Shown here piece after piece: positions 1,731-55,620 of a stretch of 64,000 bases of DNA. Position 1 is the first letter of the stretch. Every line of letters begins with the position of its first letter. Under the pieces are notes generated by a model, which did no database searches, was not told the origin of the DNA, and saw nothing but the letters and a program-made list of their open reading frames with translations. The stretch covers positions 32,178,001 to 32,242,000 of the forward strand of contig NW_025964112.1 in assembly GCF_023055435.1 (NCBI RefSeq). Direction: 5' to 3'. Origin of the DNA: Haliotis rufescens. Lineage: Eukaryota. A program made the translations under genes and the position numbers.

Positions 1731-4199
1731 TGCACTTGTGACATGCTGGATATGTGGTGGAAGATGGAGTTAAACAAAGTTAGTCTTAACAGAAACAGGC
1801 AGAGAATGCGACGTAGAGTTAGACTTACGGCATAGCCATTTTTGTCTCACATGTGTATTTTCACTGAATGTTGTGTAATTCATAATGAAATTGTTCTCTT
1901 TTGAAAAGAAATAAAAAAAACTGCTGTTACATAACTAATATTGGTCAATGATACATACAAAATATGAATATTACTTCTTATATGTGCATTATTTATAAAA
2001 GTATACTTTACCTTATATAATTTAAGAACATATAGCTATACCTATCTCTCAGTAAAGGGTGGCCCTGTAACTTTTCTGTAGAGACACACTGTATGGAAGC
2101 CGACTATTACACGCTACTATACCCGTACGGCTATTTGAGCAAGGGGGAAATATCTTGAGAAGAAGATGCTGAAATATAACATTAAACGACGTATTGATTT
2201 AATTGTGCGTAAACCACTGTATCACCTTCAAACAAACGAAATGAATGCCCCACTGAGTATTCAGTCCATACCTTAATGTAAAAAACAAGACTAAGGTGAT
2301 TGCGTGCATGGTAAAGTTCAGTTAGTCTAATGTACAGGCGTGTTCACGGGAACCTATATATGTTTCCTGCCCATTAATAAACTGTACACTCACTGAATTA
2401 ATTCTGCAGGTATATCCTTTGGTCGGAAGCGATGCTGGAAATAACAAACAACCAAAACAACTCAATGCGCAGTGATACTAAATACGAACGTGTCAACATT
2501 CGACGACCTAACATTGGTTTACAGAGTAACGACATGTCGGACGGACCCGACATCAGCAGCCTTGCCGTTGTAGCAGGCGGGAGGTTCTCTCTGTTCATCA
2601 ACTGACATTTACACGCTGAGTATTTCTGGCCTGAAGAATGATTGCCGCCTAGTAGAACATCAGAGTTAGATCTAATCGATCACATCACGAGCAGGCCCAG
2701 CTTGGGCGAGAACATCGTAGCGAGCGCGGAAGAGAAAAACCCGTCTCAGTGGAATGGAATTAGGTGTGCAAAAGGACTTACGTGATTTGACAGCTCCTGA
2801 CGTAAAATAGCCCCCAAGAAAGATTTTCTGTGCAGGTAAGATATTTAATATGTCTTAGTTAAGACGTTGAAAAACTTTATTCTCACTGAGCGCTCTTATG
2901 TTTTGTAAGCATTGTTTGAGTTTAATTAGTTTCTCACGAGTTCCGATCAGATGTAAGTTGTGAACAGTGTTTTTATCATTTTAACAAATAGAAGGGAAAA
3001 TTACGGCACATTGTTGCAGACTACTATTTGAATAGTTGTTCATGTGTATACTACACTAGCATGTGTATATATGAACTATTTCAAATTTGAGCAGAATTCT
3101 TAGGCTAAGGACTGTAGCATATTTGAGTTATTGTAAATTTACCAGAAGAATAGAAGTTGTATGCAAGCTCCACATCGTTGCCTCAATGGGTGAGAAGTGA
3201 GTTTGACTCTATCTTCGGAACTTGTCGACATTATGTTTGTTATTCATGTCACTAATGTGGAATATGAATTGAAACACTTGGCATATGTCTTATTGTTGGA
3301 ATGAATAAGAGAAGTGAAACGTCACTACTTCAACATATTTCTACTTAGATAATGTTTGTTATTCGTTATTTACAAGCCACACAACACAGAGTTTGATATA
3401 GACGACAAAACAAGGTGATACATGTGTCTTCAGAATACAAAGGAGCTCATTGTGTCGAAGAATCAACATCACTTGCCTTGCCCTTTTCGACTTGTTCAGA
3501 TAATAGATAAAAGTATTAGATCAGCAAACATTACGTGGCCATATCTACATGCCTCTTTGTTATCACAATCTTACTTCCAATGAAAAGGGTACGTCACACG
3601 ACAATAAGTATTAAACTGACTCGTGATAATGTCTCATGTCTCGAATTCTTGGTATCTCTGTTCGAGATAATGGGATCTAACTAGATAAAGGTTCATGTCT
3701 GAACGCTGTATATTTGGCGTCTGTTCATTTATTCAAAATTAAAAGGTAGAAACTTTTTCCGAATGATAATAATTCTACTATGAAAAAAGTGGCAGGTGCG
3801 GCTGTCGAATGCAAAATAAAACGTAAAATGGTGACACGGTGGTATGCATTCCTAAAATCCTTGAAATTTCACAAGATATGTAATTGATGTTTTTATTGTA
3901 AATAGTAGAGCTGTAGAAAGTAAACTGCATTTAAGTAATTAGTTGAATATAATAATCAAGTCTAAATGCCACTGTTCGTCTTCTGATAGAAAATAGACAG
4001 AACGTGGACAAACCCTTTTGAATGAAGGCATTTGTGTGCCATCATCAGTATCTGACTTTAATAACTCGGGGTAACACTGTGACGTCCTTGATATTACGAT
4101 AGATATGTTCAGGTCTACACATAGGTTATACTTTGTTTCTATCTTTCTAAGCCTGACTAACTTTCATTGTTCATTGCAAGTGTATTTGGTTTGTTGAGG

Positions 4200-4967
4200 C
4201 CGTTTGTATATTAGTGACAGTCAGTTGAACGTGATTGGGGTCCAAATGGATACAGAAATAGAAAAGAACGAGTGCCGAGCCAGTCATCAAGTTTTTCACT
4301 TTAAAAAAAGTACTCCCCAAGAAATTCATGGCCGCATGTGTATTAGGATAAGTGCTATAGCTATTCCACTATTAAACGTTGGGTAGCTTTGTTTAAGGCT
4401 GGGAGAACAAGCCTTTATCACATCATGATGACCCTAATTCTGGACGTCCCTCAACTTCCATCGATGAAGATTTAATCAAGGAGATAGAAAAACTTATACT
4501 ATCAGATAGACGTATTACCATTGCTCTGCTGATTTCCTTCATCGCATGAGATATTCTATCAAACAAAAGTGGCGAAGAATGTTGACTACTGGAGTCTCAC
4601 TACTTCATGACAATGCCTCTTCTCACACCTTGCAAATGCAGTTGTGCGACAACGTGGGTTCGAAGTGCTTCCCTTCTCTCCATATTTGCCAGACCTGGCA
4701 CAAAGTGATTTCGATCTGTTTCCTTAACTGAAAGAACACCTTCGTGGAAAGCGCTGTGACGAAAAGATGACCTCAAAGCTGCCGTGAATTTTTATTGCAG
4801 GGTGACTTAAGGAAACTTCTTCCTGACTGGAACTGAAAAGCTTCACTATCGATATGCGAAGTGTATTGAAAAACAGGGAGATTATGTTAAAAACTAAAAT
4901 TTAAAATCACTTTCACAATTGTTGGTTTTGTTTGTTAGGCTTAGAGCTTTTTGGCCATCTTTCGTAT
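4200..4967 (+). mobile_element. Degenerate mariner (DD34D-type) transposon remnant
   Basis: Broken frames give EKNECRA.., DDPNSGRPSTSIDEDLIKEIEKLILSDRRITI, LLHDNASSHT, PYLPDLAQSDFDLFP*LKEHLRGKR and CIEKQGDYVKN*; internal deletion; eroded TIR-like end ..tttcgta near 4965. Confidence 0.85.
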
Positions 4968-5097
4968 ATCTAAGCCATTGGCTTCACCTACGCTATCGCA
5001 CGACCATTCGTTTAAATAGATGTGTGATATACACAAACCTTTGAGTAGGGTGTATGCTAAATTACTACCGACAATCAGTCCCAGTTCATTGACCTTT

Positions 5098-5263
5098 GGG
5101 GGCGGTGGAGTAGCCTAGTAGCTTAAGCGTCCGCTTGTCACTTCGAAGATCCGAGTTCGATTCCCCACATGGGTACAATATGTGAAGTCCATATCTGGTG
5201 TCCCCCGCCGTGATTTTACTGGAGTTTGCTAAATGTGCTGTAAAACCATACTCACTTACTCAC
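5098..5263 (+). mobile_element. tRNA-derived SINE, family A copy 1
   Basis: A-box-like gtagcctagtag, B-box gagttcgattccc, (CACT)n tail; flanked by TSD tcattgaccttt (5086-5097 and from 5264); paralog at 49891. Confidence 0.9.
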
Positions 5264-5739
5264 TCATTGACCTTTGTAATGAAAGAATTTGCATCGGCAA
5301 TTATATATCACACTGTAAGGAATCGTGTGTGTCATTACACCCACAAGAACCTCAAGCCATTATTTCTATGACGTTGCTCAGGGCGGAATAGTTACAGTAT
5401 GTCATCACGCTGTTGCAGTAATGGTATTAAGTGGAACGTCCTTGAAATGCTGTGACAACATTTTGACTACATTGAATGCTGCGACAACGAGCAGTCATAC
5501 TAGTGGGTGATGGCATGAGCATCGATTCACGACATTAGAACACAATGACACTTTTAATATTCCACTCAAAAGTGAGTACGTGAGGTGTTCCCGGATGGTG
5601 AACACCTAGACATCTCGTCAGTCTTCTTGTATAATCCAAACAAGTGGTGATTACGTATCGTTAACACCTGGCCATAACATTAGCCATCTTGTACACCACC
5701 GGCAAGCGGTGATTACATATAGTGAACACCTATGTGTGT

Positions 5740-6508
5740 ATGTATTTCCCATGCTTACAGGCTGCCTTCTAACCAAATACACAACCAGGCGGAATATTTC
5801 TGAGGAATTCATGGTGACTAGGTATTCCGTGTGCACACCAACAGCCATCCATGCTGACATGCTGTCAACTTTAGGGGATGAGGCTCCTTTGTCATTGTTT
5901 AGAGGTGTTGGCAGGCTCATCATCTTTCGTGAAAATTTACGTCGTGTTGAGCGATTTGTATCTTTGAGTGTGTCTTGGGTTCATCAGAGACTAAACACCA
6001 GGGAGTGGAGCATCCAAAGTCTCAGAAGAAGAAGCAGCAAAGTATGTTACGTCAGCTGACATGGGGATGGCTTTGGTTTTCTATGATTCCTTAGGAATCC
6101 GACTGGCGAACCACCTCTAAAAAGATCGGACCATATAATGGCCAATATTTATGCTTATCTGCTTAGGCAACTGCGTGAGAATATCAAGGCTAAACTCACC
6201 GAAGCTGTGTTGTTGTACCAGGACAAAACACATGCGCACAAATTTGTTGTCGTCATTAACTTGAATTGGCATTTCAAATTTGTCACCTCTTCCCAAAATT
6301 GACGAAAGAACCGCCTGGTAAGCATTATGCTTGGAGGAGTTCTTACTCCACAAGGAGGAAACCTTCAAAACCAGTGCGATCTAGACGCTCCAGTGTCGTT
6401 GGCAGAAGAGTGTGGATATCAGTGGGGAATATCTTGAAATATACTCAAGTATCAACTCAGCGCAGTCCGTCATAGTAAGGCTCAGATTTCTTCGCCACCC
6501 CTCGTAGT
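5740..6508 (+). mobile_element. Highly degenerate mariner remnant
   Basis: Fragments resembling mariner motifs (FYDSLGI.., vllyqDk.., C-terminal ggggaatatcttgaaa) and a mariner-type TIR end cccctcgta at ~6499-6507. Confidence 0.55.
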
Positions 6509-6767
6509 ATATTGTTACATAGTCACACATTAGGTAAGTTATCACTGCTCTACCTAACCTATTGTTTAATATAAGTTCCACTGAAAATTGAACATATTTT
6601 CACATACATTTACAAACATGTTTAAATTTCATTGATGTTAATGTCTTGATATTCCAATAAGGAGGGGGTATCGTAAGTTGGTCACTATTGTTCAATCCAA
6701 TTATGTTCTGTAAACAAAATATGTTGGAACTAAACTAACCTAGTGCAAATAAAACATCATGTAAATA

Positions 6768-8334
6768 TACTACTCAAAATTTGATAAGGATCGTAGATAT
6801 TTTTCTTAATAAAAAAACAAAATAACTGCATAACTGGCAATATTGTGTTCAAGTGAAATCAAAAACGTCTCCAACACACTTGCACGTGCATTTCATGCCA
6901 TGGGAAATGCGTTTCACATCACAGTTCATGCTTTTGCTACCATTGCACGATTTCCAATCAGGCAACGATGTCTGATTCATTCTGAAACTTTAAACTCAAT
7001 TGAGTGTTTACACTACGTTTATCTACGCAATGCCCCCTCAACGTGTAAGGCGTCGCCTGACGACAGAACAACTGGGCAGATGTATTGGAATGCTTGATGC
7101 TGGCTATTCACAACGTGACGTTGCCAATGCACTAAACGTCAGCCAGAGCGTTGTAAGCAGGGCCTGGTCCCGACAGCAAAATTTTGGTACAGCAGCACAC
7201 CGACATGTGGGTGGTCGTCAGAGGTCGACAACCCAACGCCAAGATAATTTTGTGGCTCTTCAGGCACGACGTCATCCCTTCTGGACAGCAACCAGCCTAC
7301 GTAACGACCTCCTGAACGCCTCGGGGGTGAATGTGTCCACTCAGACGATACAGAATCGTCTTCACAATGCAGGTCTCTTCTCGAGAAGGGCATGTGTCCG
7401 AATCCCCCTGACTGTTCGACACCGGCGGGAGCGATTGGAATGGGCTGAAGATCATGTCACTTGGACACGGAACGATTGGGTTCCAGTTCTGTTCACCGAT
7501 GAGTCCAGGTATTGTTTGGACTTTACAGACAGGAGGCAGCGGGTGTGGCGACGACAAGGTGAACGTTTCCATGATGCCAAAATCAGTGAACATGACCGTT
7601 ATGGTGGTGGTTCCATTATGGTCTGGGGTGGAATCAACAGAGATGGAAGGACATATCTTCATGTCCTGGAGAGAGGAACAATGACGGGGGTGAGGTACCG
7701 GGATGAGATCCTCGATGTGTACGTCAGACCCTACGCTGGTGCTGTTGGCCCTGAGTTCATCCTGATAGATGATAACGCCCGTCCTCATCGCGCCAGGGTG
7801 GTTGAGCAGTACCTTGAGCAGGAGACAATTGTCCGCATGGATTGGCCAGCGCGCTCGCCGGACTTGAACCCGATTGAGCATGTCTGGAACATGCTGCAGG
7901 TTGCCCTTTCACGCCGTAGAGCACAACCCACGACTTTGGCAGAGCTCGGACATGCCCTCGTGGAAGAGTGGAACAACCTTCCCATTGGGAACATCCGGGT
8001 GCTTATTGACAGCATATCTCGACGTTGTCAGGCCGTCATTGATGCAAGGGGAGGTCATACTCAATATTGACACTTCATCGACTAAGTGTAATGATGGACT
8101 ATCCCTCATAACTGTGTAATTCTTTCTCTTGTTTGCTGTTAACATTTTTTAATGAAATGCCTTTTGGTGTTTGCAGATTTCAAACATTCCATATTGATAC
8201 AAGTTCATGCCGTTCATGCATTTTCATTCATAACATGATTAAACACGTTTCTGAGTCAGAGTCATGTCTTTTGTTATGTTTGTGGTAACTTACACACATA
8301 TCACCTAGTGATCCTTATCAAATTTTGAGTAGTA
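6768..8334 (+). mobile_element. Full-length Tc1-family DNA transposon
   Basis: Perfect 25-bp TIRs tactactcaaaatttgataaggatc (6768-6792) and gatccttatcaaattttgagtagta (8310-8334), TA on both flanks (boundary ambiguous by 2 bp), one intact transposase ORF. Confidence 0.97.
7030..8070 (+). CDS. Tc1 transposase, DD34E, 346 aa, intact
   Basis: ATG at 7030 (MPPQRVRR..); paired-like HTH (YSQRDVANALNVSQSVVSR), FTDESR, GGGSIMVWGGI, DDNARPH, WPARSPDLNPIEHVW; 34 residues between second D and E. Confidence 0.96.
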   Translation: MPPQRVRRRLTTEQLGRCIGMLDAGYSQRDVANALNVSQSVVSRAWSRQQNFGTAAHRHVGGRQRSTTQRQDNFVALQARRHPFWTATSLRNDLLNASGVNVSTQTIQNRLHNAGLFSRRACVRIPLTVRHRRERLEWAEDHVTWTRNDWVPVLFTDESRYCLDFTDRRQRVWRRQGERFHDAKISEHDRYGGGSIMVWGGINRDGRTYLHVLERGTMTGVRYRDEILDVYVRPYAGAVGPEFILIDDNARPHRARVVEQYLEQETIVRMDWPARSPDLNPIEHVWNMLQVALSRRRAQPTTLAELGHALVEEWNNLPIGNIRVLIDSISRRCQAVIDARGGHTQY

Positions 8335-10388: not shown

Positions 10389-10620
10389 TCGTGACTTGAT
10401 GGTGTGCATAATTTGTTCCTTTGTTGTTACTTTATTGTGTTGGAGGTGTTATTACATGAGCTTAACTCGTGACTTGATGGTGTGAATAATTTGTTCCTTT
10501 CTTGTTACTTTATTGTGTTGGAGGTGTTATTACATGAGCTTAACTCGTGACTTGATGGTGTGCATAATTTGTTCCTTTCTTGTTACTTTATTGTGTTGGA
10601 GGTGTTATTACATGAGCTTA
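10389..10620. repeat. 78-bp tandem repeat x3
   Basis: tcgtgacttgatggtgtg.. recurs at 10389, 10467 and 10545. Confidence 0.93.
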
Positions 10621-10654
10621 GCTCCAGTGGAGGAATAGGCGTCTATGAAGGAGT

Positions 10655-11678
10655 TATAAGTGAAGGAGCAGTAATCAGGGTATGAAGGTTATCAGTGAAG
10701 TAGCAGTAATCAGGGTATGAAGTGCTATAAGTGGAGAAGCAGTAATCAGGGTATTAAGGTTTAAGTGAAGTAGCAGTAATCAGGGCATTAAGGGTAATTA
10801 GTGAAGTAGCAGTAATCAGGGTATGAAGGTCATTAGTGAAGTAGCAGTAATCAGGGTATGAAGGTTATTAGTGAAGTAGCAGTGATCAGGGTATGAAGGG
10901 TTATAAGTGAAGTAGCAGTAATCAGGGTATGAAGGTTATTAGTGAAGTAGCAGTAATCAGGGTATGAAGGGTTATTAGTGAAGTAGCAGTAATCAGGGCA
11001 TAAAGGTAATTAGTGAAGCAGCAGTGATCAGGGTATGAAGGGTTATAAGTGAAGTAGCAGTAATCAGGGTATGAAGGTTATAAGTGAAGTAGCAGTAATC
11101 AGGGTATGAAGGGTTATAAGTGAAGTAGCAGTAATCAGGGTATGAAGGGTTATTAGTGAAGTAGCAGTAATCAGGGCATGAAGGTAATTAGTGAAGTAGC
11201 AGTGATCAGGGTATGAAGGGTTATAAGTGAAGTAGCAGTAATCAGGGTATGAAGGGTTATTAGTGAAGTAGCAGTAATCAGGGTATGAAGTGTTATTAGT
11301 GAAGTAGCAGTGATCAGGGTATGAAGGGTTATAAGTGAAGTAGCAGTAATCGGGGTCTGAAGGTTATAATTGAAGTAGCAGTAATCAGGGTATGAAGGGT
11401 TATTAGCTAAGTAGCAGTAATCAGGGTATGAAGGGTTATAAGTGAAGTAGCAGTAATCAGGGTATGAAAGGTTATTAATGAAGTAGCATTAACAGGGTAT
11501 GAAGGGTTATTAGTGAAGTAGCACTAATTAGGGTATGAAGGTTTAAGTGAGGTAGCTGTAATCAGGGTATGAAGGGTTATAAGGGAAGTAGCAGTACATC
11601 AGGGTATGAAGGATTATTAGTGAAGTAGCAGTAATCAGGGTATGAAGGTTATAAGTGAAGTAGCAGTACATTAGGGTA
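10655..11678. repeat. 35-36-bp minisatellite
   Basis: Unit agtgaagtagcagtaatcagggtatgaa(g)ggttatt. Confidence 0.96.
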
Positions 11679-12704
11679 TTGTTTTTATTTGCTTTGTCGG
11701 GTTACCGTGGCTACTTGCTTTGTCGGGTTACCGTTTTTATTTGCATTGTCGGGTTACCGTGGCGACTTGTGTTGTCGGTTACCGTGGCTATTGGCGTTGT
11801 CAGGTTACCGTGGCTACTTGCTTTGTCGAGTTACTGTGGCTTCAAACGTTGTCGGGTTACCGTTTCTACTTGCGTTGTCGGGTTACCGTTTCTACCTGCT
11901 TTGTCGGGTTACCGTTTTTGTTTGCGTTGTCGGGTTACTGTGGCGACTTGTGTTGTCGGTTACCGTGGCTATTGACGTTGTCAGGTTACCGTGGCTACTT
12001 ACTTTGTCGGGTTACCGTTTCTACTTGCTTTGTCGGGTTACCGTTTCTATTTGCGTTGTCGGGTTACCGTGGCTACTTGCGTTGTCGGGTTATCGTGGCT
12101 ACTTGCATTGTCGGGTTACCGTGGCTACTTGTGTTGTCGGGTTATCGTGGCTACTCACGATGTCAGGTTACCGTTTTTACTTGTGTTGTCAGATTACCGT
12201 TTTTACTTTCGTTGTGGGGTTCCCCAGGCTACTTGTGTTGTCGGGTTATCGTGGCTACTCACGTTGTCGGGTTACCGTTTCTACTTTCGTTGTGGGGTTA
12301 CCGTGGCTACTTGTGTTGTCGGGTTATCGTGGCTACTCACGTTGTCAGGTTACCGTTTCTACTTGTGTTGTCAGGTTACCGTTTCCTCTTGCGTTGTCGG
12401 GTTACCATGGCTACTCACGTTGTCGGGTTACCGTTTCTACTTTCGTTGTGGGGGAACCGTGGCTATTTGCGTTGTCGGGTTACCTTTTCTTCTTGCATTT
12501 TCGAGATACCGTGGCTACTTGCGTTGTCTGGTTACCGTGGCTACTTGCGTTGTCTGGTTACCGTGGCTACTTGCGTTGTCGGGTTACCGTGGCTACTTGT
12601 ATTCACGGTTATTGTTACTGTTTACATTGATGGGTTAGTGTTGCTACAAGTGTATACGGGTTAGTATTTCTATCTGCGTTGACCGGTTATCGTTGCTACT
12701 TTCG
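11679..12704. repeat. 26-bp minisatellite, variant-rich
   Basis: Unit gttgtcgggttaccgt(gg/tt)ctacttgc; produces the spurious LSGYRG ORFs. Confidence 0.96.
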
Positions 12705-13405
12705 TAAACGGTTTAGGCTTGCTACTTACGTTAACGGTTTAGGCTTGCTACTTACGTTAACGGTTTAGGCTTGCTACTTACGTTAACGGTTTAGGCTTGT
12801 TACTTACGTTAACGGTTTAGGCTTGTTACTTACGTTAACGGTTTAGGCTTGCTACTTACGTTAACGGTTTAGGCTTATTACTTACGTTAACGGTTTAGAC
12901 TTGCTACTTACGTTAACGGTTTAGGCTTGTTACTTACGTTAACGGTTTAGGCTTGTTACTTACGTTAACGGTTTAGGCTTGTTACTTACGTTAACGGTTT
13001 AGGCTTGTTACTTACGTTAACGGTTTAGGCTTGTTACTTACGTTAACGGTTTAGGCTTGTTACTTACATTAACGGTTTAGGCTTGTTACTTACATTAACG
13101 GTTTAGGCTTGTTACTTACGTTAACGGTTTAGGCTTATTACTTACGTTAACGGTTTAGGCTTATTACTTACGTTAACGGTTTAGGCTTGTTACTTACGTT
13201 AACGGTTTAGGCTTGCTACTTACGTTAACGGTTTAGGCTTGTTACTTACATTAACCGTTTAGGCTTGTTACTTACGTTAACGGTTTAGGCTTGTTACTTA
13301 CGTTAACGGTTTAGGCTTGCTACTTACATTAACGGTTTAGGCTTGTTGCTTACGTTAACGGTTTAGGCTTGTTACTTACGTTAACGGTTTAGGCTTGCTA
13401 CTTGC
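12705..13405. repeat. 26-bp minisatellite, homogeneous
   Basis: Unit cttacgttaacggtttaggcttg(t/c)ta containing the palindrome cgttaacg. Confidence 0.97.
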
Positions 13406-23120: not shown

Positions 23121-24264
23121 TACACTCTTCAAAAAAAAGGAACGCAGAGGTACATTTTTAGTAAATGTATTGTACCTGATAAAGTTGTTATATTTAATTT
23201 AATATCATAGATACAAATATGACATTTTGTAGCTTGACAGTCACATGTTGTCGTTGTACAAAGGCATTGAAAACTGTTCATTGTCATGTCACATAAGGCC
23301 ACAAGGTTGCGCTGAACTCAGTATCTAGTGTGACCGCCCCGATCAGCAATCACGGCTCTGCATCTCCTCGGCACTGACTGGATAAGTGTACGAATTCTGT
23401 CCTGCGGAATTCTACGGAATTCTGCGCCATTCTGCTTGTAATGCGTTGGCCAGGTGGGAGTGTCTGTGGCGTGTTCTGACGCTGACGCTGACGCACACGT
23501 CGATCGAGTTCACCCCAGAGGTGTTAGATTGGTAGATATCTGGAGATCTCGACGGCCAGGGCAAGACGTTGATGTAGGCATTATGAAGGTAGTCTACCGT
23601 GACACGAGCTGTGTGCGGTGGAGCGTTGTCCTGTTGAAACAGGTCCCTCTTGCGGTAAAAGATTGGAAGAAAGTGAGGTTGAAGAATTTGTTTCATGTAG
23701 CGATTTGCTGTCAAGTTTCCCTGAACTACAGATCTCGTGGTGCAGCGATCCTGTGCAGGGGTGGTAACTCTTGGTCGGTCGGTTCTCGGACGGTCTGCAG
23801 TGGAATTGAACTGTGTGTATCCGTCACAAAGGCGGCAAATGATGCTGTTTTGGACATTGAAGTGACGTGCAACAGAAGACTGCGATTCCCCTCTTTCGAT
23901 ACGTCCTATGGCGATGTTCCGATCGGCAGCGCTGAGTCTCGGCATTTTCGAAAAATGTTGACAATTGAATGACAAATTATTGGCTTATGCTTGCCTTTTT
24001 ATAGCCACTACCACGAGTTACGAATGCCATAACTTGCACGTACATTTTGTTTTACTGTTTTTCTCCATGACATTTTTGAACAAGTGTGAAAACAATGCCG
24101 TTTAAGACATTGCAAATCGAAAATTTGACGCACCGTTTGTCGAATATCAGGCCAACAACATTTTTCAATAACATATATCCAATCTAAATATACCGGATAT
24201 TTTGTCAATTAAATTTTTGAATGAACTAAATACTACCTGTGCGTTTCTTTTTTTGAAGAGTGTG
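23121..24264 (-). mobile_element. Internally deleted Tc1 transposon (family different from 6768-8334)
   Basis: TIRs tacactcttcaaaaaaaaggaacgcagaggta and tacctgtgcgtttctttttttgaagagtgtg; upstream TA intact, downstream TG. Confidence 0.92.
23325..23945 (-). pseudogene. Tc1 transposase pseudogene (central deletion and frameshift)
   Basis: MPRLSAADRNIAIGRIERGESQSSVARHFNV..RPRVTTPAQDR joined directly to VQGNLTANRY..FQQDNAPPHTAR..WPSRSPD; the first catalytic D region is missing. Confidence 0.9.
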
Positions 24265-24759: not shown

Positions 24760-25300
24760 ATAATCATGGGCAATACTAAAATATACGCAAACATTTAAGA
24801 CTTGACTTTCACTTTGTGTGAGTTCATTGGAGTGTGAACCTTCAAAGAGTGAGGGCCAAATTGTATGAACGTCGGAGTTTGCGACATCCTCATGGTTTAT
24901 TCTCCCAGCAGTGTTTTATTGTACGATAAACAGCTCCCAATCGTCGTTTATTTCCTAAATAATGCTGTAGACTGTCACTGTTGTCTAGACACGGATCTAG
25001 TCGATACTACGGTAGTTTGGATGTGCTTTTCTTTTTTTTGTTCCCTTAGATGGGTTGTAGGATACCCTTGAATGGGCATCCGAAAACATTGTTGACGCCA
25101 TTCGAATCTTATTGTGACGTAAGGTCGAAAGGACATCACACTAGAGACGACGTCATAGCTGAAGCACAAGTGTGGCTTTCTAAGACGTTGGTCGTGATCG
25201 GTGGATTTTCTTTGAGGGGAGCTCAGAGGGATAAATAATACTTCTCGCATTATGAAACACAAATTCATCATAAAAAAATATGTTATATAGCAGTGTATCG
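24760..25300 (+). mobile_element. Possible very old mariner remnant
   Basis: RDDVIAEAQVWL resembles the mariner C-terminal helix; otherwise weak. Confidence 0.3.
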
Positions 25301-25654
25301 TATTGTTGAACAATGATATTATGTATTATGTACAATGTATTATGTTAACAGACCATGGATTACAATGTTGTTTTCAAACTCAAGACCAGTAAATTATGGC
25401 GCGGCTGAGAGAATAGTTTTAAAATGCCAAACAATATACTACTCGTCAGCAGTAACTGCCGGAAGCTCATTGCGTGTTTAACTGATGTATAGTACCTATG
25501 AAATACTAGGATTCTACAGCAAACCGTTTGGGACCAGTTTCCAGTTCCAGCAGGTGTGGTAAACAGAAACGACGGGCAGTTCGGTTCTAACGCCAATATT
25601 TTTATTTAAACTAAAATAGAATGGTAGAAGGTAAAACCAATCATATAAGTCTAT

Positions 25655-28600
25655 TAGTCCATGGGCCAGAGCACATATCGGTACCACCTGGGGTGGCAAA
25701 ACCTAAGTGGTACTAACATGTATATAGGGTCAATACAAGTGCAAAATGATATGATAACCTTTCCGCAGAATTAGCTTATTACTACATTTCCACATACCTC
25801 GGATTTCACACTTTGCACTATAGCGTAATCATTGTAAACACAATCTAGTTTTATTTCAGATAGCAGCTGGAATTGATCTAAATCAGTGTAAGAAAGGCTG
25901 TAGGAATTTTGCAATGAATAACAAATGGCAAATACATTATTGTCCGTCTTCATTGGCTGGGCCAATGCCACAGGGTACCCTGCCTGAAGTCAACAAGAAG
26001 TCCAAGAAGAGGAACATCAGCGCTGCCCCTCTGATTCAACATCCTGACCCGCAATGTATTATTGTTGCTCAAGGTACTGTGAGCTACCTGCCCATCATCA
26101 ATGCTCCTGCAACAAACATGTCCACTGTGAATGAAGTGCTGGCGCAAACTCTTCGCATCATGCAAGTCCTGCAGCTGAATGAGATTGTGTGTGTGTTCGA
26201 CCAAGCACTCTATGCCAAGGCTGCAGAGATAGTGTGGAAACACGAGAAGTTACAAGAAAATAATCATTAGGATGGGGGTCTTCCACACAATCTACAACCT
26301 CCTCTCCATCATAGGGAAGAGATTTCAAGATGCAGGGCTCAGAGATCTGTGTGTTGAATCAGGGGTGATTGCAGACGGATCGATAGCTGGTGTCATGGAA
26401 GGGCGCAGGTACAACCGGGGAGTTAGACTACACAGCTTGTGTATGCTTGTGTATGAAGCACTGATGAGGCTTGCATGGAAAGGCTTTCTCCAATGGTTGC
26501 AAAACAACCATATCCACGATCCTCACCACCTAGACGAAACCCTGCAGAGGATTGTCGACTTCCAATGTCAAGCTTCACTCCTGAACCTACTTGAAGACCA
26601 CTCCTGCAGGAGGATCTTGGAGCTGTTCCAATCTTACCTGATCTCCCTCAGAGAACACAGCCTTCTGGATGTCTTATGTAGACATGTTCGAAATCATGCT
26701 GGGCCTCATTCGATCTTCTCGAGAGGGTGACTGGATGCTTCATGTGGCAGCCATCCGACAGATGATTCCCTGGTGCTTTTCCTGTGACAAGCTCAACTAT
26801 GCCCGCTTCCTGACCTACTACTATGCCACCATGTCTCGGCTGCCCATCAAACACCCTGAAGTCAACAAGCACTTCATGCAGGGCGGGTTTTCAGTCCAGA
26901 TTGGTCATCAAAACCCCTTCGGGAGGATCCCTGTTGATCAGACGATTGAGGAGACCATCAACAAGGACACACGGATACCTGGAGGCACCAAAGGTTTCAG
27001 TCTGAAACCTGGCGCGGTTGCAAGACACTTCCTGACATCAGAGTACCGGAGCACCTACCTGAAGCAGCTGAGGGGTATGGTCCATATAGGGCAACATGAC
27101 TGCCTGAGTCATCCTGATCTGCAACTCCCTAGGATCAGACGAGACGAAGCTGACATCCAATCCCTCGTTCGGGTAATGGAGGCGAGCTGGTTCAATCCTT
27201 TCAACACTGACCAAGGAGAGCTTGTCAGTCTGTCGACTGCTACTACTGCGCTGGAAGAAGTGTCCAAAGACCTTCTCAGGGCTTGCAAGATAGGAGAAGA
27301 TGCATACCAGACCTTCAAGCAAGAACGCTTAGAAGCATCTGACCCATCAGTCCCACGACAGGATGCAAAAGAAGAATCTGAATCAGAAAGAAGTCCCGCA
27401 GCAAAGGCCGTGCCAAAGAAGTGGTCCTGAAAGCTGACAGGAAATTATTTGGTCAAATGATCCTTGTAGCTGAGAGTCGAAAACTGCACATGAGTGTTGT
27501 ACTTGCTCATCCTCTGGGGCCTCTGCCATGGGCCCTCGCCAACGGAGATGGGTCCCTCCGCAAGACGAACAAAGCAGCCTTTCCCAGATCCATCCAACTG
27601 TAATAGATGGAATGAGCTTCATCCAGAAGTGGAACGGTAATGAGAAAACCTTCGAACAGCTGGCAGAATCAGCCTTGTCCCTTGTTCTGCATGAAGGCAA
27701 GAAGAGCCAACGCATCGATGTCGTCTTTGACGTGTACAAGGAGACGTCCATTAAAGACGCAGAACGATGTAACAGGAGGTCAGACACAGAATTCCAATTC
27801 AGAAACAATGCACCTGGTCACAATATTCAGCAATTGAGAAAGTTACTGAGCAGCTCGTCTTACAAACCAAGACTGATCAAGTTACTGGTGGAAGAATGGA
27901 AGAAAGCAAGTCAAAGAGAGAAACTCGAGAAACACGGTACTGTATGTTACCTGCGAAGACATCTGCTATAAGATGACCAAAGAAGAGTGGGAGGAGGCTG
28001 GAGAGCTGAAGTCTTCTCAAGAAGAAGCCGACACCCGCCTTCTGCTCCATGCTCTGCATGCAGCGGAGCATGGCTACAAGAGTGTAGTCATCACTGCTGA
28101 TGATACTGATGTCTTGGTCTTGACCTCGGCGTCAGCAGCAGTATTGCATGCCCAATATTCCAGAAATGTGGGACGAAGAGCCGCACAATGTACATAAACA
28201 TCCAGAAGCTACACCAGGCACTGGGAGATGATGTCTGTAATGCGCTCGTCAGCATGCACGCGTTCACGGGCTGTGATACAGTCAGTGCCTTTGCTGGCCG
28301 GGGGAAGATGGCAACATTGAAGAGGATTAAGTCAGACAAGACCTACCAGGAGGCCTTCAGTGAACTTGGTAGTTGATGGGAGGTATCAACGGAATTGTTC
28401 CAGGGGCTGCAGAAGATCACCTGCCAAATGTACTTGCCTTCTGCCCAGACGACTGAGGTGAACAGACTCAGACACCAACTCTTCTGTGCCAGACGAGGGG
28501 AGATGGAGTCAAGCCAACTGCCACCTTGTGAAGACTGCCTGTTCATGCATGCTCTCCGTGCCAACTACCAGGCTGCCATCTGGAGGAGATGTCTGCAGAC

Positions 28601-29224
28601 CCAGCCCATTGTCCCAAGGCCGAAGGAGTGTGGTTGGAAAAACAGAAGAGGACGGCAAGCTGACAATTCAGTGGATGCGTGGCTCACCTGCACCAGATGC
28701 CGTTCTCCAGTTGCTCTCCTGCAAATGTGTCCGCTCATGCAAACTGCCAGATTGTTTTTGCCTCACCAATGGCTTGAGGTGCACAGACATGTGTAAGCTA
28801 CAAACCTGCACTAACCAAGCCAAGGATGACCCACAGTTGGAGCTTTCAGATTTGTCAGACTCTGATGATGAGCTTGACGGTGATTAGGCCCAGTTACTCA
28901 ACTATGGACACATATAATTCAACTTTCAAGTCAATTTTCAAAGCTACTAGTGTTCTGATTGTGTGCCCAAGAGATTAACCATGGTCTCTATGATGTTTTT
29001 TTTTATTGTCAGAGTAAATTACATTAACAAAATACGAGTTTATGGCTGTTTTTCCTAGGGTATGCTGATATAATGGGTTAAAACTACTATTAAGCTACCA
29101 ATCTGCGATGGTTATCATATCAAAACATAAACTAGACATATATAGCATGTGAAAAATTGCAACTAGAATTTGCCACTCTGAGTGGTACCGATAAGTGAAA
29201 TTTTCGGTCTTGGCTCATGGACTA
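25655..29224 (+). mobile_element. Academ-superfamily DNA transposon (AcademX type), internally deleted
   Basis: Termini TAGTCCATG..CATGGACTA, imperfect TIRs of ~120 bp sharing tatcggtaccac, gtggcaaa and tgatatgataacc; 3-bp TSD TAT (25652-25654 and 29225-29227); encloses transposase, XPG-like and Cys-rich coding remnants. Confidence 0.88.
25940..28887 (+). pseudogene. Academ polyprotein pseudogene: DDE-type transposase, XPG/FEN1-like nuclease, Cys-rich (CXC/Cys8) finger
   Basis: Colinear pieces across about 8 frameshifts: VFDQALYAKA, MGVFHT, DKLNYARFL, PVDQTIEETINKD, IDGM, DVVFDVY, QEEADTRLLLHA, ADDTDVLVL, HAFTGCDTVSAFAGRGK, LPPC..HALRANYQAAIW, CKCVRSCKLPDCFCLTNGLRCTDMCKLQTC, acidic tail. Confidence 0.88.
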
Positions 29225-30124
29225 TATCATAACAGCGTGACATACGTATGCTTTGCGAATGACTGTGGTCTGAAGATTCCCACCACCGTGACTGGTGCTG
29301 CAAGCGGGTACGGAGAAGGTTGGGCGCGTCAGCTTTATACACCAGATAAAAAAACCCGCACAAACAAAAAATACATTGAATGTCGAATGTTTATTGCTGT
29401 TTCTATTATAACTGTTGTTGTTTCTGTTACCAAGCGGTGCACTTTCACTTCCATGTGTTTATTTGATTCATCATAAAGGAAATAGCTACCATCCGATAGT
29501 TCAGTGAGTGTGTTGTTTATTGACCAAAGTCTTGCTTTTTCAGAATCCGCTGACTGCCCCGTGACAAGCGCATACAAACATAATAGTATAAATAGTAGCA
29601 CCTGTTGTGTGTAGGGGTAACGATGGGCGGGGAAGCGACACAGCGACGTACATGTGATAGCGTTTTTGTTTTAAAAAATAAGGTTGTGAACCGATTAAAC
29701 CTTTATGTGGTTCAACAAAGAGACGAGCTATCAAGATGTCAGTAAGTGATAATTCCGTACGTACTTTTTTTAGGAAATGTGTTATTCGTTATGATAAACT
29801 CTTTCATTTGCCGATAATCCGAAACAGACTCAAAATCGCTGTCAAAACAGAGCTACTCGAAATTGATTGCATTTTCTTATGATTCGAATTACGTATGACC
29901 TTTTAACTTTTCCGATAAAGATTTTCACATAATATTGCTATTGCTTTTCGGTTAATATCAATATTGAAATATTCTTTGTCATTTTGTCCTTTGTTTAACA
30001 GGCATAGCAGATATTAAATCAATAACAAAATTAAATGCATCATCGGATGGACAATGACATCGATGCAGATGGAAAAACCGATACTTTTAAAGTCTTGATC
30101 CATCTCTTAAATGAGATGAGGACA

Positions 30125-36439: not shown

Positions 36440-37365
36440 AGAGAGTATCTCAATTAAATGCAGGGAACTCGTTCCAAAGTCTCAACACACAATCAACGTC
36501 TCAGTTGAATGTTGGTAACTCGTACCAAAGTCTCAACACAGAGACAATATCGCCATTTAATGTAGGCCTCTCACTATAAAGTCTCGACACAGAGACAATA
36601 TCGCCATTGAATGTAGGCCTCTCACTACAAAGTCTCGACACAGAGACAATATCGCCATTGAATGTAGGCCTCTCACTACAAAGTCTCGACACAGAGACAA
36701 TATCGCCATTGAATGTAGGCCTCTCACTATAAAGTCTCGACATAGAGACAATATCGCCATTGAATGTAGGCCTCACACTACAAAGTCTCGACACAGAGAC
36801 AATATCGCCATTTAATGTAGGCCTCTCACTATAAAGTCTCGACACAGAGACAATATCGCCATTGAATGTAGGCCTCTCACTACAAAGTCTCGACACAGAG
36901 ACAATATCGCCATTGAATGTAGGCCTCTCACTACAAAGTCTCGACACAGAGACAATATCGCCATTGAATGTAGGCCTCTCACTACAAAGTCTCGACACAG
37001 AGACAATATCGCCATTGAATGTAGGCCTGTCACTACAAAGTCTCAACACAGAGACAATATCTCAGTTGAATGTAGGCCTCTCACTACAAAGTCTCGACAT
37101 AGAGACAATATCTCAGTTGAATGTAGGCCTCTCACTATAAAGTCTCAACACAGAGACAATATCGCCATTGAATGTAGGCCTCTCACTACAAAGTCTCGAC
37201 ATAGAGAAAATATCGCCATTGAATGTAGGCCTCTCACTATAAAGTCTCAACACAGAGACAATATCGCCATTGAATGTAGGCCTCTCACTACAAAGTCTCG
37301 ACATAGAGACAATATCTCAGTTGAATGTAGGGCTCTCACTACAAAGCTTTGATACAGAGACAATT
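36440..37365. repeat. 51-bp minisatellite
   Basis: Unit ttgaatgtaggcctctcactacaaagtctcgacacagagacaatatcgcca, with degenerate edge units. Confidence 0.97.
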
Positions 37366-50309: not shown

Positions 50310-51905
50310 ACGCTGACATACGGTCGTGTTGAAACAATCATCACACTGACATGCAATCTTGTTGAAATATTCAGCATACTGACATGCAATCATGTTGAAA
50401 CTTTCAGCATCCTGACATGCAATCTTGTTGAAATATTCAGCATACTGACATGCAATCGTGTTGAAACTTTCAGCATACTGACATGCAATCGATTTGAAAC
50501 CTTCAGCATACTGACGTGAAATAGTGTTGAAATATTCAGCATACTGACATGCAATCGTGTTGAAATATTCAGCATCCTGACATGCAATCTTGTTGAAATA
50601 TTCAGCATATTGACATGCAATCGTGTTGAAATATTCAGCATACTGACATGCAATCGTGTTGAAACCTTCAGCATCCTGACATGCAATCGTGTTGAAACCT
50701 TCAGCATACTGACATGAAATCGTGTTCAAACTTTCAGCATACTGACATGCAATCTAGTTGAAACCTTCAGCATCCTGACATGCAATCGTGTTAAAACCTT
50801 TAGCATACTGACATGCAATCGTGTTCAAACTTTCAGCATACTGACATGCAATCGTGTTAAAACCTTCAGCATCCTGACATGCAATCGTGTTGAAATATTC
50901 AGCATACTGACATGCAATCGTGTTGCAATATTCAGCATCCTGACATGCAATCGTGTTGAAATATTCAGCATCCTGACATGCAATCGTGTTGAAATATTCA
51001 GCATACTGACATGCAATCGTGTTGAAACCTTCAGCATCCTGACATGCAATCGTGTTGAAACCTTCAGCATCCTGACATGCAATCGTGTTGAAACCTTCAG
51101 TACCCTGACATGCAATCGTGTTGAAACCTTCAGCATACTGACATGCAATCTAGTTGAAACCTTCAGCATCCTGACATGCAATCGTGTTGAAACATTCAGC
51201 ATAATGACATGCAATCGTGTTCAAATATTCAGCATCCTGACATGCAATCGTGTTGAAACCTTCAGCATAATGACATGCAATCGTGTTCAAATATTCAGCA
51301 TACTGACATGCAATCGTGTTCAAACCTTCAGCATACTGACATGCAATCGTGTTGAAATATTCAGCATCCTGACATGCAATCTAGTTGAAACCTTCAGCAT
51401 CCTGACATGCAATCGTGTTGAAACATTCAGCATAATGACATGCAATCGTGTTCAAATATTCAGCATCCTGACATGCAATCGTGTTGAAACCTTCAGCATA
51501 ATGACATGCAATCGTGTTCAAATATTCAGCATACTGACATGCAATCGTGTTCAAACCTTCAGCATCCTGACATGCAATCGTGTTCAAATATTCAGCATAC
51601 TGACATGCAATTGTGTTCAAACCTTCAGCATACTGACATGCAATCGTGTTGAAATATTCAGCATCCTGACATGCAATCGTGTTGAAATATTCAGCATACT
51701 GACATGCAATCTTGTTCAAATATCCAGCATACTGACATGCAATCGTGTTGACATATTCAGCATACTGACATGCAATCGTGTTGAAATATTCAGCATACTG
51801 AAATGCAATCGTATTGAAACATTTAACATACTGACATGAAATAGTGTTGAAATACTCAGCATACTGACATGCAATCGCGTTGAATCCTCAAGCATACTGA
51901 TATCA
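50310..51905. repeat. 33-bp minisatellite
   Basis: Unit ctgacatgcaatcgtgttgaaa(ta/cc)ttcagcat(a/c). Confidence 0.97.
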
Positions 51906-52740
51906 AACCATCTTGAAGCCTTCGTCCCACTAACCTGCAACCTTCTTTAGACATTCAATATGTTGACATGCAACCACCTTGAATCATTCGTCCCAATAAC
52001 CTGCAACCTTCTTTAGACATTCAATATGTTGACATGCAACCACCTTGAATCATTCGTCCCACTAACCTGCAACCTTCTTTAGACATTCAATATGTTGACA
52101 TGCAACCACCTTGAATCATTCGTCCCACTAACCTGCAACCTTCTTTAGACATTCAATATGTTGACATGCAACCACCTTGAATCATTCGTCCCACTAACCT
52201 GCAACCTTCTTTGGACATTCAATATGTTGACATGCAACCACCTTGAATCATTCGTCCCACTAACCTGCAACCTTCTTTAGACATTTAATATGTTGACATG
52301 CAACCACCTTGAATCATTCGTCCCACTAACCTGCAACCTTCTTTAGACATTCAATATGTTGACATGCAACCACCTTGAATCATTCGTCCCAATAACCTGC
52401 AACCTTCTTTAGACATTCAATATGTTGACATGCAACCACCTTGAATCATTCGTCCCACTAACCTGCAACCTTCTTTAGACATTCAATATGTTGACATGCA
52501 ACCACCTTGAATCATTCGTCCCACTAACCTGCAACCTTCTTTAGACATTCAATATGTTGACATGCAACCACCTTGAATCATTCGCCCCACTAACCTGCAA
52601 CCTTCTTTAGACATTCAATATGTTGACATGCAACCACCTTGAATCATTCGTCCCACTTACCTGCAACCTTCTTTAGACATTCAATATGTTGACATGCAAC
52701 CACCTTGAATCATTCGTCCCACTAACCTGCAACCTTCTGG
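51906..52740. repeat. 66-bp dimeric higher-order repeat of the 33-bp family
   Basis: ttgaatcattcgtcccactaacctgcaaccttc + tttagacattcaatatgttgacatgcaaccacc. Confidence 0.95.
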
Positions 52741-53224
52741 AAGCATTCATTGCACTGATAAGCAATCATCTTGAAACATTCAGCATACTGACATGTACTC
52801 ATCTTGAAACACACAATACTTCATGAAAGCACATTGTAGCATTAGTTAACCTGACTTGCATCCATCTTGAAACACTGAGTTTATTTTCATGTAACTATCT
52901 TGAAGCATACTGACATATATGCAATCTTGAAGCATTCGTCACACTGACATGCAACATGCATCTTGAAGCCTTACTGACGAGCAACCATCTTGAAGCATTC
53001 GTCATATCGACACATAACCGTCTTAAACAGCCATTACCTTGGCTTACAGCGTTTTTGAACAAAAGAGTGTTTCAATATTGTTACAAGTCAATACCATGAC
53101 TATTTAAAACAACGATGTATACCAGGTTCATGGATGTTTGAAGATGGTTGCAGGTCAGTGTGACGAATGCCTCAAGATGTTTGCATGTCAGTACGCTGAA
53201 TGCCTAAAGATAGTTTCATCTCAA

Positions 53225-55620
53225 AATGTACAACCAGCATGTCATACACCTTACACACATACATCCAGCATGTCATTCTCCTCACACATATACATCCAGC
53301 AAGTGATACAACTTACACACATACATCCAGCAAGTGATACACCTTACACACATACATCCAGCAAATGATACTCCTCACACACATACATCCAGCAAATGAT
53401 ACACCTTACACACATACATCCAGCAAGTGATACTCCTCACACACATACATCCAGGAAAGTGATACACCTCACACACATACATCTAGCAAGTGATACTCCT
53501 CACACACATACATCCAGCATGTCATTCTCCTCACACATATACATCCAGCAAGTGATACAACTTACACACATACATCCAGCAAGTGATACACCTTACATAC
53601 ATTCACCCAGCAAGTGATACTCCTCACACACATACATCCAGCATGTCATTCTCCTCACACATATACATCCAGCAAGTGATACAACTTACACACATACATC
53701 CAGTAAGTGATACACCTTACACACATACATCCAGCAAATGATACTCCTCACACACATACATCCAGCATGTCATTCTCCCCACACATATACATCCAGCAAG
53801 TGATACACCTTACATACATTCACCCAGCAAATGATACTCCTCACACACATACATCCAGCAAGTGATACTCCTCACACACATACATCCAGCAAGTGATACT
53901 CCTTACACACATACATCCAGCAAATGATACTCCTCACACACATACATCCAGCATGTCATTCTCCCCACACATATACATCCAGCAAGTGATACACCTTACA
54001 TACATTCACCCAGCAAATGATACTCCTCACACACATACATCCAGCAAGTGATACTCCTCACACATATACATCCAGCAAGTGATACACCTTACATACATTC
54101 ACCCAGCAAATGATACTCCTCACACACATACATCCAGCAAGTGATACTCCTCACACACATACATCCAGCAAGTGATACAACTTACACACATACATCCAGC
54201 AAGTGATACTCCTCACACACATACATCCAGCAAATGATACTCCTCACACACATACATCCAGCATGTCATTCTCCCCATACACATACATCCAGGAAAGTGA
54301 TACACCTCACAGACATACATCCAGCAAGTGATACACCTTACATACATTCACCCAGCAAGTGATACTCCTCACACACATACATCCAGCATGTCATTCTCCC
54401 CATACACATACATCCAGCAAGTGATACACCTTACATACATTCATCCAGCAAGAGATACTCCTCACACACATACATCCAGCAAGTGATACTCCTCACACAC
54501 ATACATCTAGCAAGTGATACTCCTCACACACATACATCCAGCATGTCATTCTCCTCACACATATACATCCAGCAAGTGATACAACTTACACACATACATC
54601 CAGCAAGTGATACACCTTACACACATACATCCAGCAAATGATACACCTTACATACATTCACCCAGCAAGTGATACTCCTCACACATATACATCCAGCAAG
54701 TGATACTCCTCACACATATACATCCAGCAAATGATACTCCTCACACACATACATCCAGCAAATGATACTCCTCACACATATACATCCAGCAAGTGATACT
54801 CCTCACACACATACATCCAGCATGTGATACTCCTCACACACATACATCCAGCAAGTGATACTCCTCACACATATACAACCAGCAAATGATACTCCTTACA
54901 CACATACATCCAGCAAGTGATACTCCTCACACACATACATCCAGCAAGTGATACACCTTACACACATACATCCAGCAAGTGATACTCCTCACACACATAC
55001 ATCCAGCATGTGATACTCCTCACACACATACATCCAGCAAGTGATACTCCTCACACATATACAACCAGCAAATGATACTCCTTACACACATACATCCAGC
55101 AAGTGATACTCCTCACACACATACATCCAGCATGTGATACACCTTACACACATACATCCAGCAAGTGATACTCCTCACACACATACATCCAGCAAGTGAT
55201 ACTCCTCACACATATACATCCAGCAAGTGATACACCTCACACACATACATCTAGCAAGAGATACTCCTCATACACATACATCCAGCAAGAGATACTCCTC
55301 ACACACATACATCCAGCAAGTGATACTCCTCACACATATACATCCAGCAAGTGATACTCCTCACACACATACATCCAGGAAAGTGATACACCTCACACAC
55401 ATACATCCAGCATGTGATACACCTTACACACATACATCCAGCAAGTGATACTCCTTACACATATACAACCAGCAAGTGATACTCCTCACACACATACAAC
55501 CTGCAAGTGATTGACATCACACACATACATCCAGCAAGTGATACACCTCACACACATTCAACCAGCAAGTGATACTCCTCACACACATACAACCAGCATG
55601 TCATACTCCTCACACACATA
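53225..55620. repeat. 31-bp minisatellite
   Basis: Unit catccagcaagtgatactcctcacacacata. Confidence 0.97.

What the first reader, a model, noticed from the sequence alone, without database searches (positions are those of the whole stretch)
25655..29224. Fully bounded AcademX-type transposon: DDE transposase fused to an XPG/FEN1-like nuclease and a Cys-rich finger
Seen: nine ORF fragments are colinear pieces of one ~950-aa protein remnant, enclosed by TAGTCCATG..CATGGACTA inverted termini and a TAT/TAT duplication. Known: TAG..CTA ends, 3-4-bp TSDs and a transposase-XPG-Cys8 architecture describe the Academ superfamily, whose mechanism is essentially uncharacterised. The acidic motifs EEADT, DDTD and GCD..GRGK parallel FEN1/XPG metal ligands and the H3TH motif. 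Inference: this element couples cut-and-paste with a structure-specific flap nuclease, and the family may be undescribed in this host.
Basis: partly seen in the sequence, partly recalled or inferred. Interest (0 to 1): 0.7.

Follow-up and report, generated by a model that had tools for sequence, protein, structure and literature searches.

The report
Dead Academ transposon with unequal ends
This is a real but dead, shortened copy of a known kind of jumping gene (AcademX), whose intact relatives are predicted to join a cut-and-paste enzyme to a second DNA-trimming nuclease, and whose two ends differ by one turn of the DNA helix, which likely makes the enzyme pair one short end with one long end.

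Summary
A 3,570-bp element at 25655-29224 has TAG..CTA ends and a TAT duplication. A public run from another organism label has the empty site with a single TAT. At least nine copies lie in this genome, none intact. The nine ORF pieces match residues 637-1605 of an intact 1,609-aa relative. Folds of that relative show an RNase H/DDE core (best match P-element transposase, Z 10.3), a FEN-type 5' nuclease (best EXO1, Z 14.9) and a Cys8 tail. Two corrections: this copy lost about 1.2 kb including the first catalytic aspartate, and was moved in trans after it broke; and 'flap nuclease' is not shown, because EXO1 and XRN1 match better than FEN1 or XPG. The same one-turn offset, in either polarity, occurs in 13 of 17 families here and 6 of 7 from other hosts; the rest are symmetric. 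This scan has reported AcademX elements and their unequal ends before on other DNA. Verdict: new member of a known superfamily; the end rule is the testable point.

The parts
25655..29224 (+). Internally deleted, non-autonomous AcademX-type DNA transposon copy, 3,570 bp
   Evidence: boundaries confirmed by the empty site in run X13
25652..25654 (.). Left target-site duplication TAT
   Evidence: single TAT at the empty site
29225..29227 (.). Right target-site duplication TAT
25655..25705 (+). 5' end, short-spacer type: 14-bp terminal box, inner box GGTACC at 25680 (25 nt from the terminus)
29164..29224 (-). 3' end, long-spacer type: 14-bp terminal box, inner box GGTACC at 29184-29189 (35 nt from the terminus), A/T tract in the spacer
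25953..25954 (.). Junction of a ~1.2-kb deletion that removed the N-terminal coding region and the WDNxD motif (first catalytic Asp); shared by 5 of 7 aligned copies
26032..26033 (.). Junction of a second deletion (~160 bp), shared by 3 of 7 aligned copies
26052..27364 (+). Remnant of the RNase H-like DDE core with its helical insertion (residues 637-1077 of the intact relative), in three frames; second Asp codon at 26199, conserved Asp and Glu codons at 26936 and 26948
   Evidence: fold of the relative; conservation
27576..28640 (+). Remnant of the FEN/EXO1-type 5' nuclease domain (IDG, VFD..K..R, EEADT, DDTD, GCD..GRGK), broken by frameshifts and a stop at 28374
   Evidence: fold of the relative; conservation
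28720..28809 (+). Cys8 tesmin/CXC-like finger, followed by an acidic tail and the stop at 28885-28887
   Evidence: weak TCR and LIN54 matches; conservation

Best explanation
This is a dead, internally deleted copy of a low-copy AcademX DNA transposon family, and it was likely moved to this site by a transposase made elsewhere. Shown: boundaries, 3-bp duplication, empty site, copies at other loci, shared breaks, and unequal end spacing. Predicted from folds of an intact relative: one ~1,600-aa protein with an RNase H-like DDE core of the P/hAT/MuDR type, an EXO1/FEN1-type 5' nuclease with a full set of metal ligands, and a Cys8 finger. Inferred mechanism: (1) DNA-binding modules, probably the N-terminal Cys/His motifs or the Cys8, grip the inner box and pair one short-spacer end (25-26 nt) with one long-spacer end (35 nt), on the same helical face; (2) the DDE site nicks the 3' ends and joins them to target DNA with a 3-nt stagger; (3) the fused 5' nuclease cuts or resects the other, non-transferred strand at the element-flank junction and frees the element from the donor, the job TnsA does beside TnsB in Tn7; (4) host repair fills the gaps and gives the 3-bp duplication. 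My odds: identity as a non-autonomous AcademX copy 0.95; both nuclease sites active in intact relatives 0.85; step 3 as stated about 0.45.
For: Nine loci at 89-100% identity. Five copies share the 1.2-kb deletion, an 8-bp deletion and a 1-bp deletion, yet sit at five different loci, each with its own perfect 3-bp duplication, so they moved after the frame broke. Empty site in X13; both junctions present in X1, X5 and X7. Four intact relatives of 6.4 kb, 99.2-99.8% identical, each with a 1,613-codon frame and a 3-bp duplication. C-terminal model, pLDDT 93.8: every listed Foldseek row is a 5' nuclease; EXO1 Z 14.9, rmsd 3.5, 257 aligned. Eight acidic positions and the Lys/Arg pair are conserved in 95-100% of 145-147 homologues. 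DDE model, pLDDT 88.0: P transposase Z 10.3, rmsd 4.5, 293 aligned; Tn5 8.7; integrases 8.0 and below. Asp, Asp and Glu sit on strand 1, strand 4 and a late helix, conserved in 121 of 122, 135 of 135 and 135 of 135. End offsets. Tn7 analogy: PMC11406308, passages. AcademX 3-4-bp duplication and nuclease: PMC10045372, passage.
Against: No activity was measured; steps 1-3 rest on folds and analogy. P-element and hAT transposases, the nearest folds, cut both strands without a second nuclease (P: PMC7776569, passage; hAT recalled), so the DDE site may not need help. Foldseek gave no DDE match at E<=0.001, and Z 10.3 is moderate for a helix-rich model. Pfam finds no XPG or DDE family. Folds were made on a relative about 50% identical, not on this copy. 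That relative (L048) has Gly at a second conserved Asp where two sister copies have Asp. 4 of 17 families here have symmetric ends, and one of them has four intact copies, so unequal ends are not required across AcademX. No intact copy of this particular family was found (searches give lower bounds), so the helper is unidentified. Family membership rests on second-hand descriptions, because Kojima 2020 and Yuan and Wessler 2011 were not held.
Confidence: 0.55

Rival explanations
1. The DDE site cuts both strands itself, as P does, and the 5' nuclease acts afterwards: it resects the empty donor site or cleans the insertion gaps, steering repair towards copying the element back from the sister chromatid.
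For: The best fold match is EXO1, a resection enzyme (role recalled). The nearest DDE fold, P transposase, cleaves both strands itself.
Against: Hosts have their own EXO1 and FEN1, so near-invariant retention in a fused form fits an obligatory step better. No direct test was possible.
Confidence: 0.25
2. The nuclease sets the short duplication: the core makes a 9-10-nt stagger as in AcademH, and the nuclease trims it to 3.
For: PMC10045372 (passage) says the difference in duplication length between AcademH and AcademX seems related to helicase versus nuclease.
Against: Duplication length did not vary: 3 bp in 15 of 16 families and in 20 of 22 copies of four families, none of the 22 with 4 bp. 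One-step strand transfer leaves no free overhang to trim (established chemistry, recalled).
Confidence: 0.12
3. The end offset is only tolerated phasing or an inherited accident: an inner site works at either distance and no short/long pairing is needed.
For: 4 of 17 families here and 1 of 7 elsewhere show offset 0 or -1. The families are related, so they are not independent trials. Deep nodes of the tree are weak (support 51-82).
Against: In the clade with the GGTACC-type box, 12 of 12 families (6 here, 6 from other hosts) have one short and one long end, while the long end is 3' in five and 5' in seven. No short/short or long/long family was seen there.
Confidence: 0.4
4. The locus is a decayed single-copy host gene, or the termini are a chance match.
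For: Public databases label homologues as hypothetical or tesmin-domain host proteins.
Against: Nine dispersed copies with the same ends and different duplications; a precise empty site; the left flank is single copy.
Confidence: 0.01

Closest known systems
AcademX lineage of the Academ superfamily (Kapitonov and Jurka 2010; Kojima 2020; neither seen; traits from passages of PMC10045372, PMC9587614 and PMC5751038, and from recall)
   Same: 3-bp duplication; DDD/E transposase with a nuclease rather than a helicase; TAG..CTA ends and a Cys8 tail (these two recalled); full-length relatives of 6-7 kb, near the 5.6-kb mean for curated bivalve Academ elements (PMC10294476, passage).
   Different: This copy is non-autonomous: 3.57 kb, first catalytic Asp lost, frame broken in eight places. 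The 25/35 end spacing did not turn up in my literature searches, but the main paper on the group could not be read.
AcademH
   Same: Same superfamily; 4 of 14 homologues tested give weak DUF6589 hits, below the curated cut-off.
   Different: AcademH makes 9-10-bp duplications and encodes a helicase; neither applies here.
Drosophila P element
   Same: Best structural match of the DDE core (Z 10.3). P ends also differ in spacing (9 and 21 bp), compared with the 12/23 signals, and P also has internally deleted non-autonomous copies (PMC7776569, passages).
   Different: P makes 8-bp duplications and has no fused 5' nuclease. Here the offset is 9-10 bp and its polarity flips between families. No P-like excision footprint was found.
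Tn7 TnsA + TnsB
   Same: A second nuclease works beside a DDE enzyme to give cut-and-paste, and is sometimes fused to it (PMC11406308, passages).
   Different: TnsA has an unrelated restriction-enzyme fold (recalled). This is an analogy of function, not kinship.
EXO1/FEN1/XPG/XRN 5' nuclease superfamily
   Same: Fold, acidic metal ligands, Lys/Arg pair and GCD..G motif.
   Different: 9-18% identity in the structural alignments, no Pfam XPG_N or XPG_I hit, fused to a transposase, substrate unknown.

Membership tests
AcademX | 3- or 4-bp target-site duplication (PMC10045372) | tested here: met
   TAT/TAT with an empty site; 5 of 6 two-ended copies perfect
AcademX | Encodes a nuclease beside the transposase (PMC10045372); XPG-like (recalled) | tested here: met
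   Fold of the intact relative; window pieces align to it
AcademX | DDD/E, RNase H-like transposase (PMC9587614, PMC5751038) | tested here: met
   Met in the intact relative. This copy keeps only the second Asp and the Glu; a longer copy of the same family keeps the first
   15 of 16 families here start with TAG, one with TAA
AcademX | C-terminal Cys8 finger (recalled) | tested here: met
   Eight Cys in the window; each conserved in 126-130 of 129-136 homologues
AcademX | Sequence match to Repbase/Dfam Academ references or the Yuan-Wessler profile | not testable with these tools
   These libraries are not held; papers not held
Autonomous AcademX copy | Intact ~1,600-aa frame with all catalytic residues | tested here: not met
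   Nine pieces, first Asp deleted
AcademH | 9-10-bp duplication and a helicase | tested here: not met
   3-bp duplication; no helicase family in the pieces or the intact relative
FEN1/XPG/EXO1 5' nucleases | PIN-like fold with acidic metal ligands and a helix-turn-helix GCD motif | tested here: met
FEN1/XPG/EXO1 5' nucleases | Pfam XPG_N / XPG_I profile hit | tested here: not met
   None in 9 pieces, the intact relative or 14 homologues; EXO1 only at E 0.05 with a profile
FEN1/XPG/EXO1 5' nucleases | Flap-specific endonuclease activity | not testable with these tools
   Needs an enzyme assay
P superfamily | 8-bp duplication | tested here: not met
   3 bp
P superfamily | Unequal spacing between terminal repeat and inner binding site | tested here: met
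   25 versus 35 nt; that the inner box binds transposase is inferred
P superfamily | N-terminal THAP domain | tested here: inconclusive

The most novel reading that the evidence does not exclude
A large clade of AcademX transposons obeys a one-turn pairing rule like the 12/23 rule of V(D)J recombination: the transposase joins only a 25-nt-spacer end to a 35-nt-spacer end, in either orientation relative to the gene, and a fused EXO1-like nuclease cuts the second strand. That would be a eukaryotic single-chain counterpart of TnsA-TnsB with RAG-like end asymmetry, and this genome holds natural test sets: near-identical intact families with unequal ends and with equal ends.
Probability: 0.35. Interest if true: 0.75.

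Novelty: new member of a known kind. Interest (0 to 1): 0.4.

Why it matters
The copy itself is ordinary debris of a common superfamily. What it leads to is more useful. My searches found no biochemical study of Academ transposition. This genome holds three young families with intact frames (98.5-100% identical copies): two with the one-turn end offset, in opposite polarity, and one without. These make two open questions directly testable: what the second nuclease does in transposition, and whether unequal ends enforce correct pairing outside RAG and P.

Tried and rejected
Pfam on the nine pieces, the intact relative and 14 homologues: no XPG, PIN or DDE family; weak DUF6589 in 4 of 14 and TCR in 1 of 14. 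PDB by sequence: nothing with the single protein; LIN54 E 0.0065 and EXO1 E 0.05 with a profile. Foldseek on the DDE model: no match at E<=0.001, Hermes on top at E 0.07. ESM Atlas: only unnamed clusters, one with DUF6589 in 13% of members. P-like excision footprints: a pattern of two abutting ends hit 2 loci (control 0); neither has a duplication, and one lies in a longer palindrome, so both were rejected. Such a search is weak. An intact member of this family: none among 58 DNA matches (40 of 64 candidates scored), 5 matches to the deleted piece or 148 protein matches (150 of 317 scored). A sister family with 89% similar ends was checked as a possible helper; the copies fetched are decayed and rearranged. 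The second TAGTCCATG at 33999 is not followed by the inner box, and the window has no second transposase match. Viral contigs: 0 relatives among 71 candidates. Rfam: none in the window. No RNA holder listed. L078, with a 1,609-codon frame, gave no inverted repeat and was left out of the end count, as was the rearranged L046. In one search, 69 of 79 loci lacked two resolvable ends. Kojima 2020 and Yuan and Wessler 2011 were not held, so they may already describe the end spacing or the catalytic residues; their supplements were not seen either. No complex prediction was run, as no binding claim is made.

Full report
Observation. The window has TAT|TAGTCCATG at 25652-25663 and CATGGACTA|TAT at 29216-29227. 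Coding-like DNA of 49-50% GC sits in flanks of 37-39%. The ends are bipartite: 13 of 14 terminal bases match, then a spacer of unequal length, then a 34-nt arm that is 79% complementary. All nine ORF pieces align in order to an intact 1,609-aa protein from the same genome, covering 934 residues between 637 and 1605 at 38-53% identity.

It is a transposon. The element matches nine loci at 89-100% in a 1.33-Gb assembly (40 of 64 candidates scored, so a lower bound). Each end 25-mer hits seven loci and the reversed controls none. Six loci have both ends; their flanking duplications are TAT, TTA, ATA, TTG, TTA and one ACG/ATG mismatch. The left flank is single copy. Three of three DNA runs laid from organism A hold both junctions. 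Run X13, labelled organism B, has one contig joining 25651 to 29225 with at least 255 bases on each side, which is the empty site with one TAT. Organisms B and C carry the family elsewhere.

It is not a whole transposon. Against the two longest copies, five of seven aligned copies, this one included, lack about 1.2 kb at 25953. The lost piece ends in the motif AWDNID, whose first Asp is the predicted first catalytic residue. The same five share an 8-bp deletion at 26663 and a 1-bp deletion at 28126, and three share a further ~160-bp deletion at 26032. Since each lies at its own locus with its own duplication, the broken form was copied in trans. The copies are 94.7-98.1% identical. Even the longest copy lacks residues ~236-511 of the relative, and no intact member turned up. 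The family looks dead in this assembly. In one of two small-RNA runs, 243 reads lie on the element, nearly all antisense; the other run had 2. Adapter positions imply inserts of about 31 nt, and the three start peaks shown (of 11) begin with U. This fits piRNA silencing of some copy of the family.

The protein. I used an intact natural relative. Four copies of it, 6,418-6,429 bp and 99.2-99.8% identical, each have a 1,613-codon frame and a 3-bp duplication. Homologues are abundant: 208 near full-length proteins and 24,006 cluster representatives at E<=0.001; the few named ones are from lancelets, corals, a snail, a sea spider and a fish. Pfam names neither catalytic domain. Residues 1160-1592, folded with 86 sequences, gave pLDDT 93.8. 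Every listed Foldseek row is a 5' nuclease (T5 FEN, XRN, FEN1, EXO1, Rad2; best E 3e-6). Realignment ranks EXO1 Z 14.9, XRN1 13.6, FEN1 12.9 and XPG 11.7-12.5. Eight acidic positions, Lys71 and Arg78 of the model are kept in 95-100% of 145-147 homologues chosen by coverage, and the window's pieces still show them. Residues 500-1160 gave pLDDT 88.0. Foldseek found nothing significant. The wide search ranks P transposase first (Z 10.3, 293 aligned), then Tn5 (8.7), retroviral integrases, ISCth4 and Hermes. The likely triad is Asp522, Asp686 and Glu942; Asp525 and Asp938 are as conserved, so the assignment is not unique. A His after the second Asp (133 of 135) recalls the C/DxxH signature of hAT, P and MuDR (PMC9587614, passage); the equivalence is my inference. 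Eight C-terminal Cys are conserved.

The ends. My first alignment of the two termini showed a 10-base gap. Earlier notes of this scan on a lizard and a ray prompted me to test it widely. I fetched 68 regions around hits, favouring long frames, and grouped them into families. For 16 families with resolved ends, five of them placed by eye, I scored the best inner diagonal from -20 to +20. Fifteen of 16 had a perfect 3-bp duplication. The offset was 10 in eleven families, 10-11 in one and 0 in four; the long end was 3' in five and 5' in seven. A seventeenth family again has 25 and 35. L078 could not be resolved. As an outside test, 10 of 79 metagenome loci had two ends and a 3-bp duplication; they form seven families with offsets +9, +9, -9, -9, -10, -10 and -1. 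In the clade with the GGTACC-type box the long spacer is always 35 nt and the short one 25-26 nt. Asymmetric families fall on both sides of a midpoint root. Three of the four symmetric ones group at support 71, and deep nodes are weak. Symmetric families include one with four intact copies, so the rule is not universal.

Mechanism. Shown: insertion with a 3-bp duplication, movement in trans, and a conserved one-turn end offset. Predicted: two nuclease folds with their catalytic residues. Inferred: pairing of one short and one long end, 3' nicking and strand transfer by the DDE site, and second-strand cutting by the 5' nuclease, as TnsA does for TnsB (PMC11406308, passages). I give this last step about 0.45, repair steering 0.25, trimming of the duplication 0.12, and other roles the rest. 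The constant 3-bp length argues against trimming. A search for P-like footprints found none.

Known and new. I saw passages only of PMC10045372 (AcademX 3-4 bp and nuclease; AcademH 9-10 bp and helicase), PMC5751038, PMC10294476, PMC10799480, PMC7776569, PMC4455052, PMC9587614 and PMC11406308. Kapitonov and Jurka 2010, Yuan and Wessler 2011 and Kojima 2020 were not seen; the TAG..CTA and Cys8 traits are recalled. The element meets every AcademX feature I could test. The end offset did not appear in searches, but it may be in the unseen papers, and 13 earlier notes of this scan already cover AcademX elements in at least nine genomes. Verdict: a new member of a known kind, interest 0.4, carried by the end rule and by the intact families that make it testable.

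Noticed in passing
window 25674-29098 (run X22): 243 small-RNA reads, nearly all antisense, about 31 nt, with the three listed start peaks beginning with U: piRNA-like targeting of this family. The second run laid had 2 reads.
   Followed up: partly
window 6994-8070: Intact-looking 358-codon Tc1/mariner-type transposase frame, recognised by eye from its motifs; not scanned against a library.
   Followed up: no
window 23412-23984 (minus strand): Decayed Tc1-type transposase remnant, recognised by eye.
   Followed up: no
window 24900-25240: Very high-copy short repeat just left of the element; summed contig depth is hundreds to over a thousand times the single-copy flank.
   Followed up: no
window 25317-25332: Organism B (run X13) carries several hundred extra bases here, a likely separate insertion absent from the window (table 8).
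   Followed up: no
L113 794-8853, L116 1029-8716, L046: A sister Academ family whose short end is 89% like this element's over 54 nt, but with the long end at the 5' side and a more distant protein. Its copies carry long inverted duplications; L046 is palindromically rearranged.
   Followed up: partly
L079, L080, L091 (6,693 bp) and L074-L077 (~6,330 bp): Two more young Academ families with intact frames of 1,623 and ~1,520 codons; the first has the 10-bp end offset, the second has equal ends.
   Followed up: partly
L078 ~3200-7800: A 1,609-codon Academ-like frame with no terminal repeat found within the 10 kb fetched; could be a longer element or a domesticated copy. Wider flanks were fetched but not analysed for ends.
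   Followed up: partly
L048 7691-8380 (-) and 8393-9634 (+): Two intronless frames of 229 and 413 aa beside an intact element, without Pfam hits.
   Followed up: partly
window 10389-13403, 36526-37364, 50313-55620, 57733-59165, 62090-64000: Large minisatellite arrays with periods of 26-78 bp; they explain most long open frames in the window.
   Followed up: no
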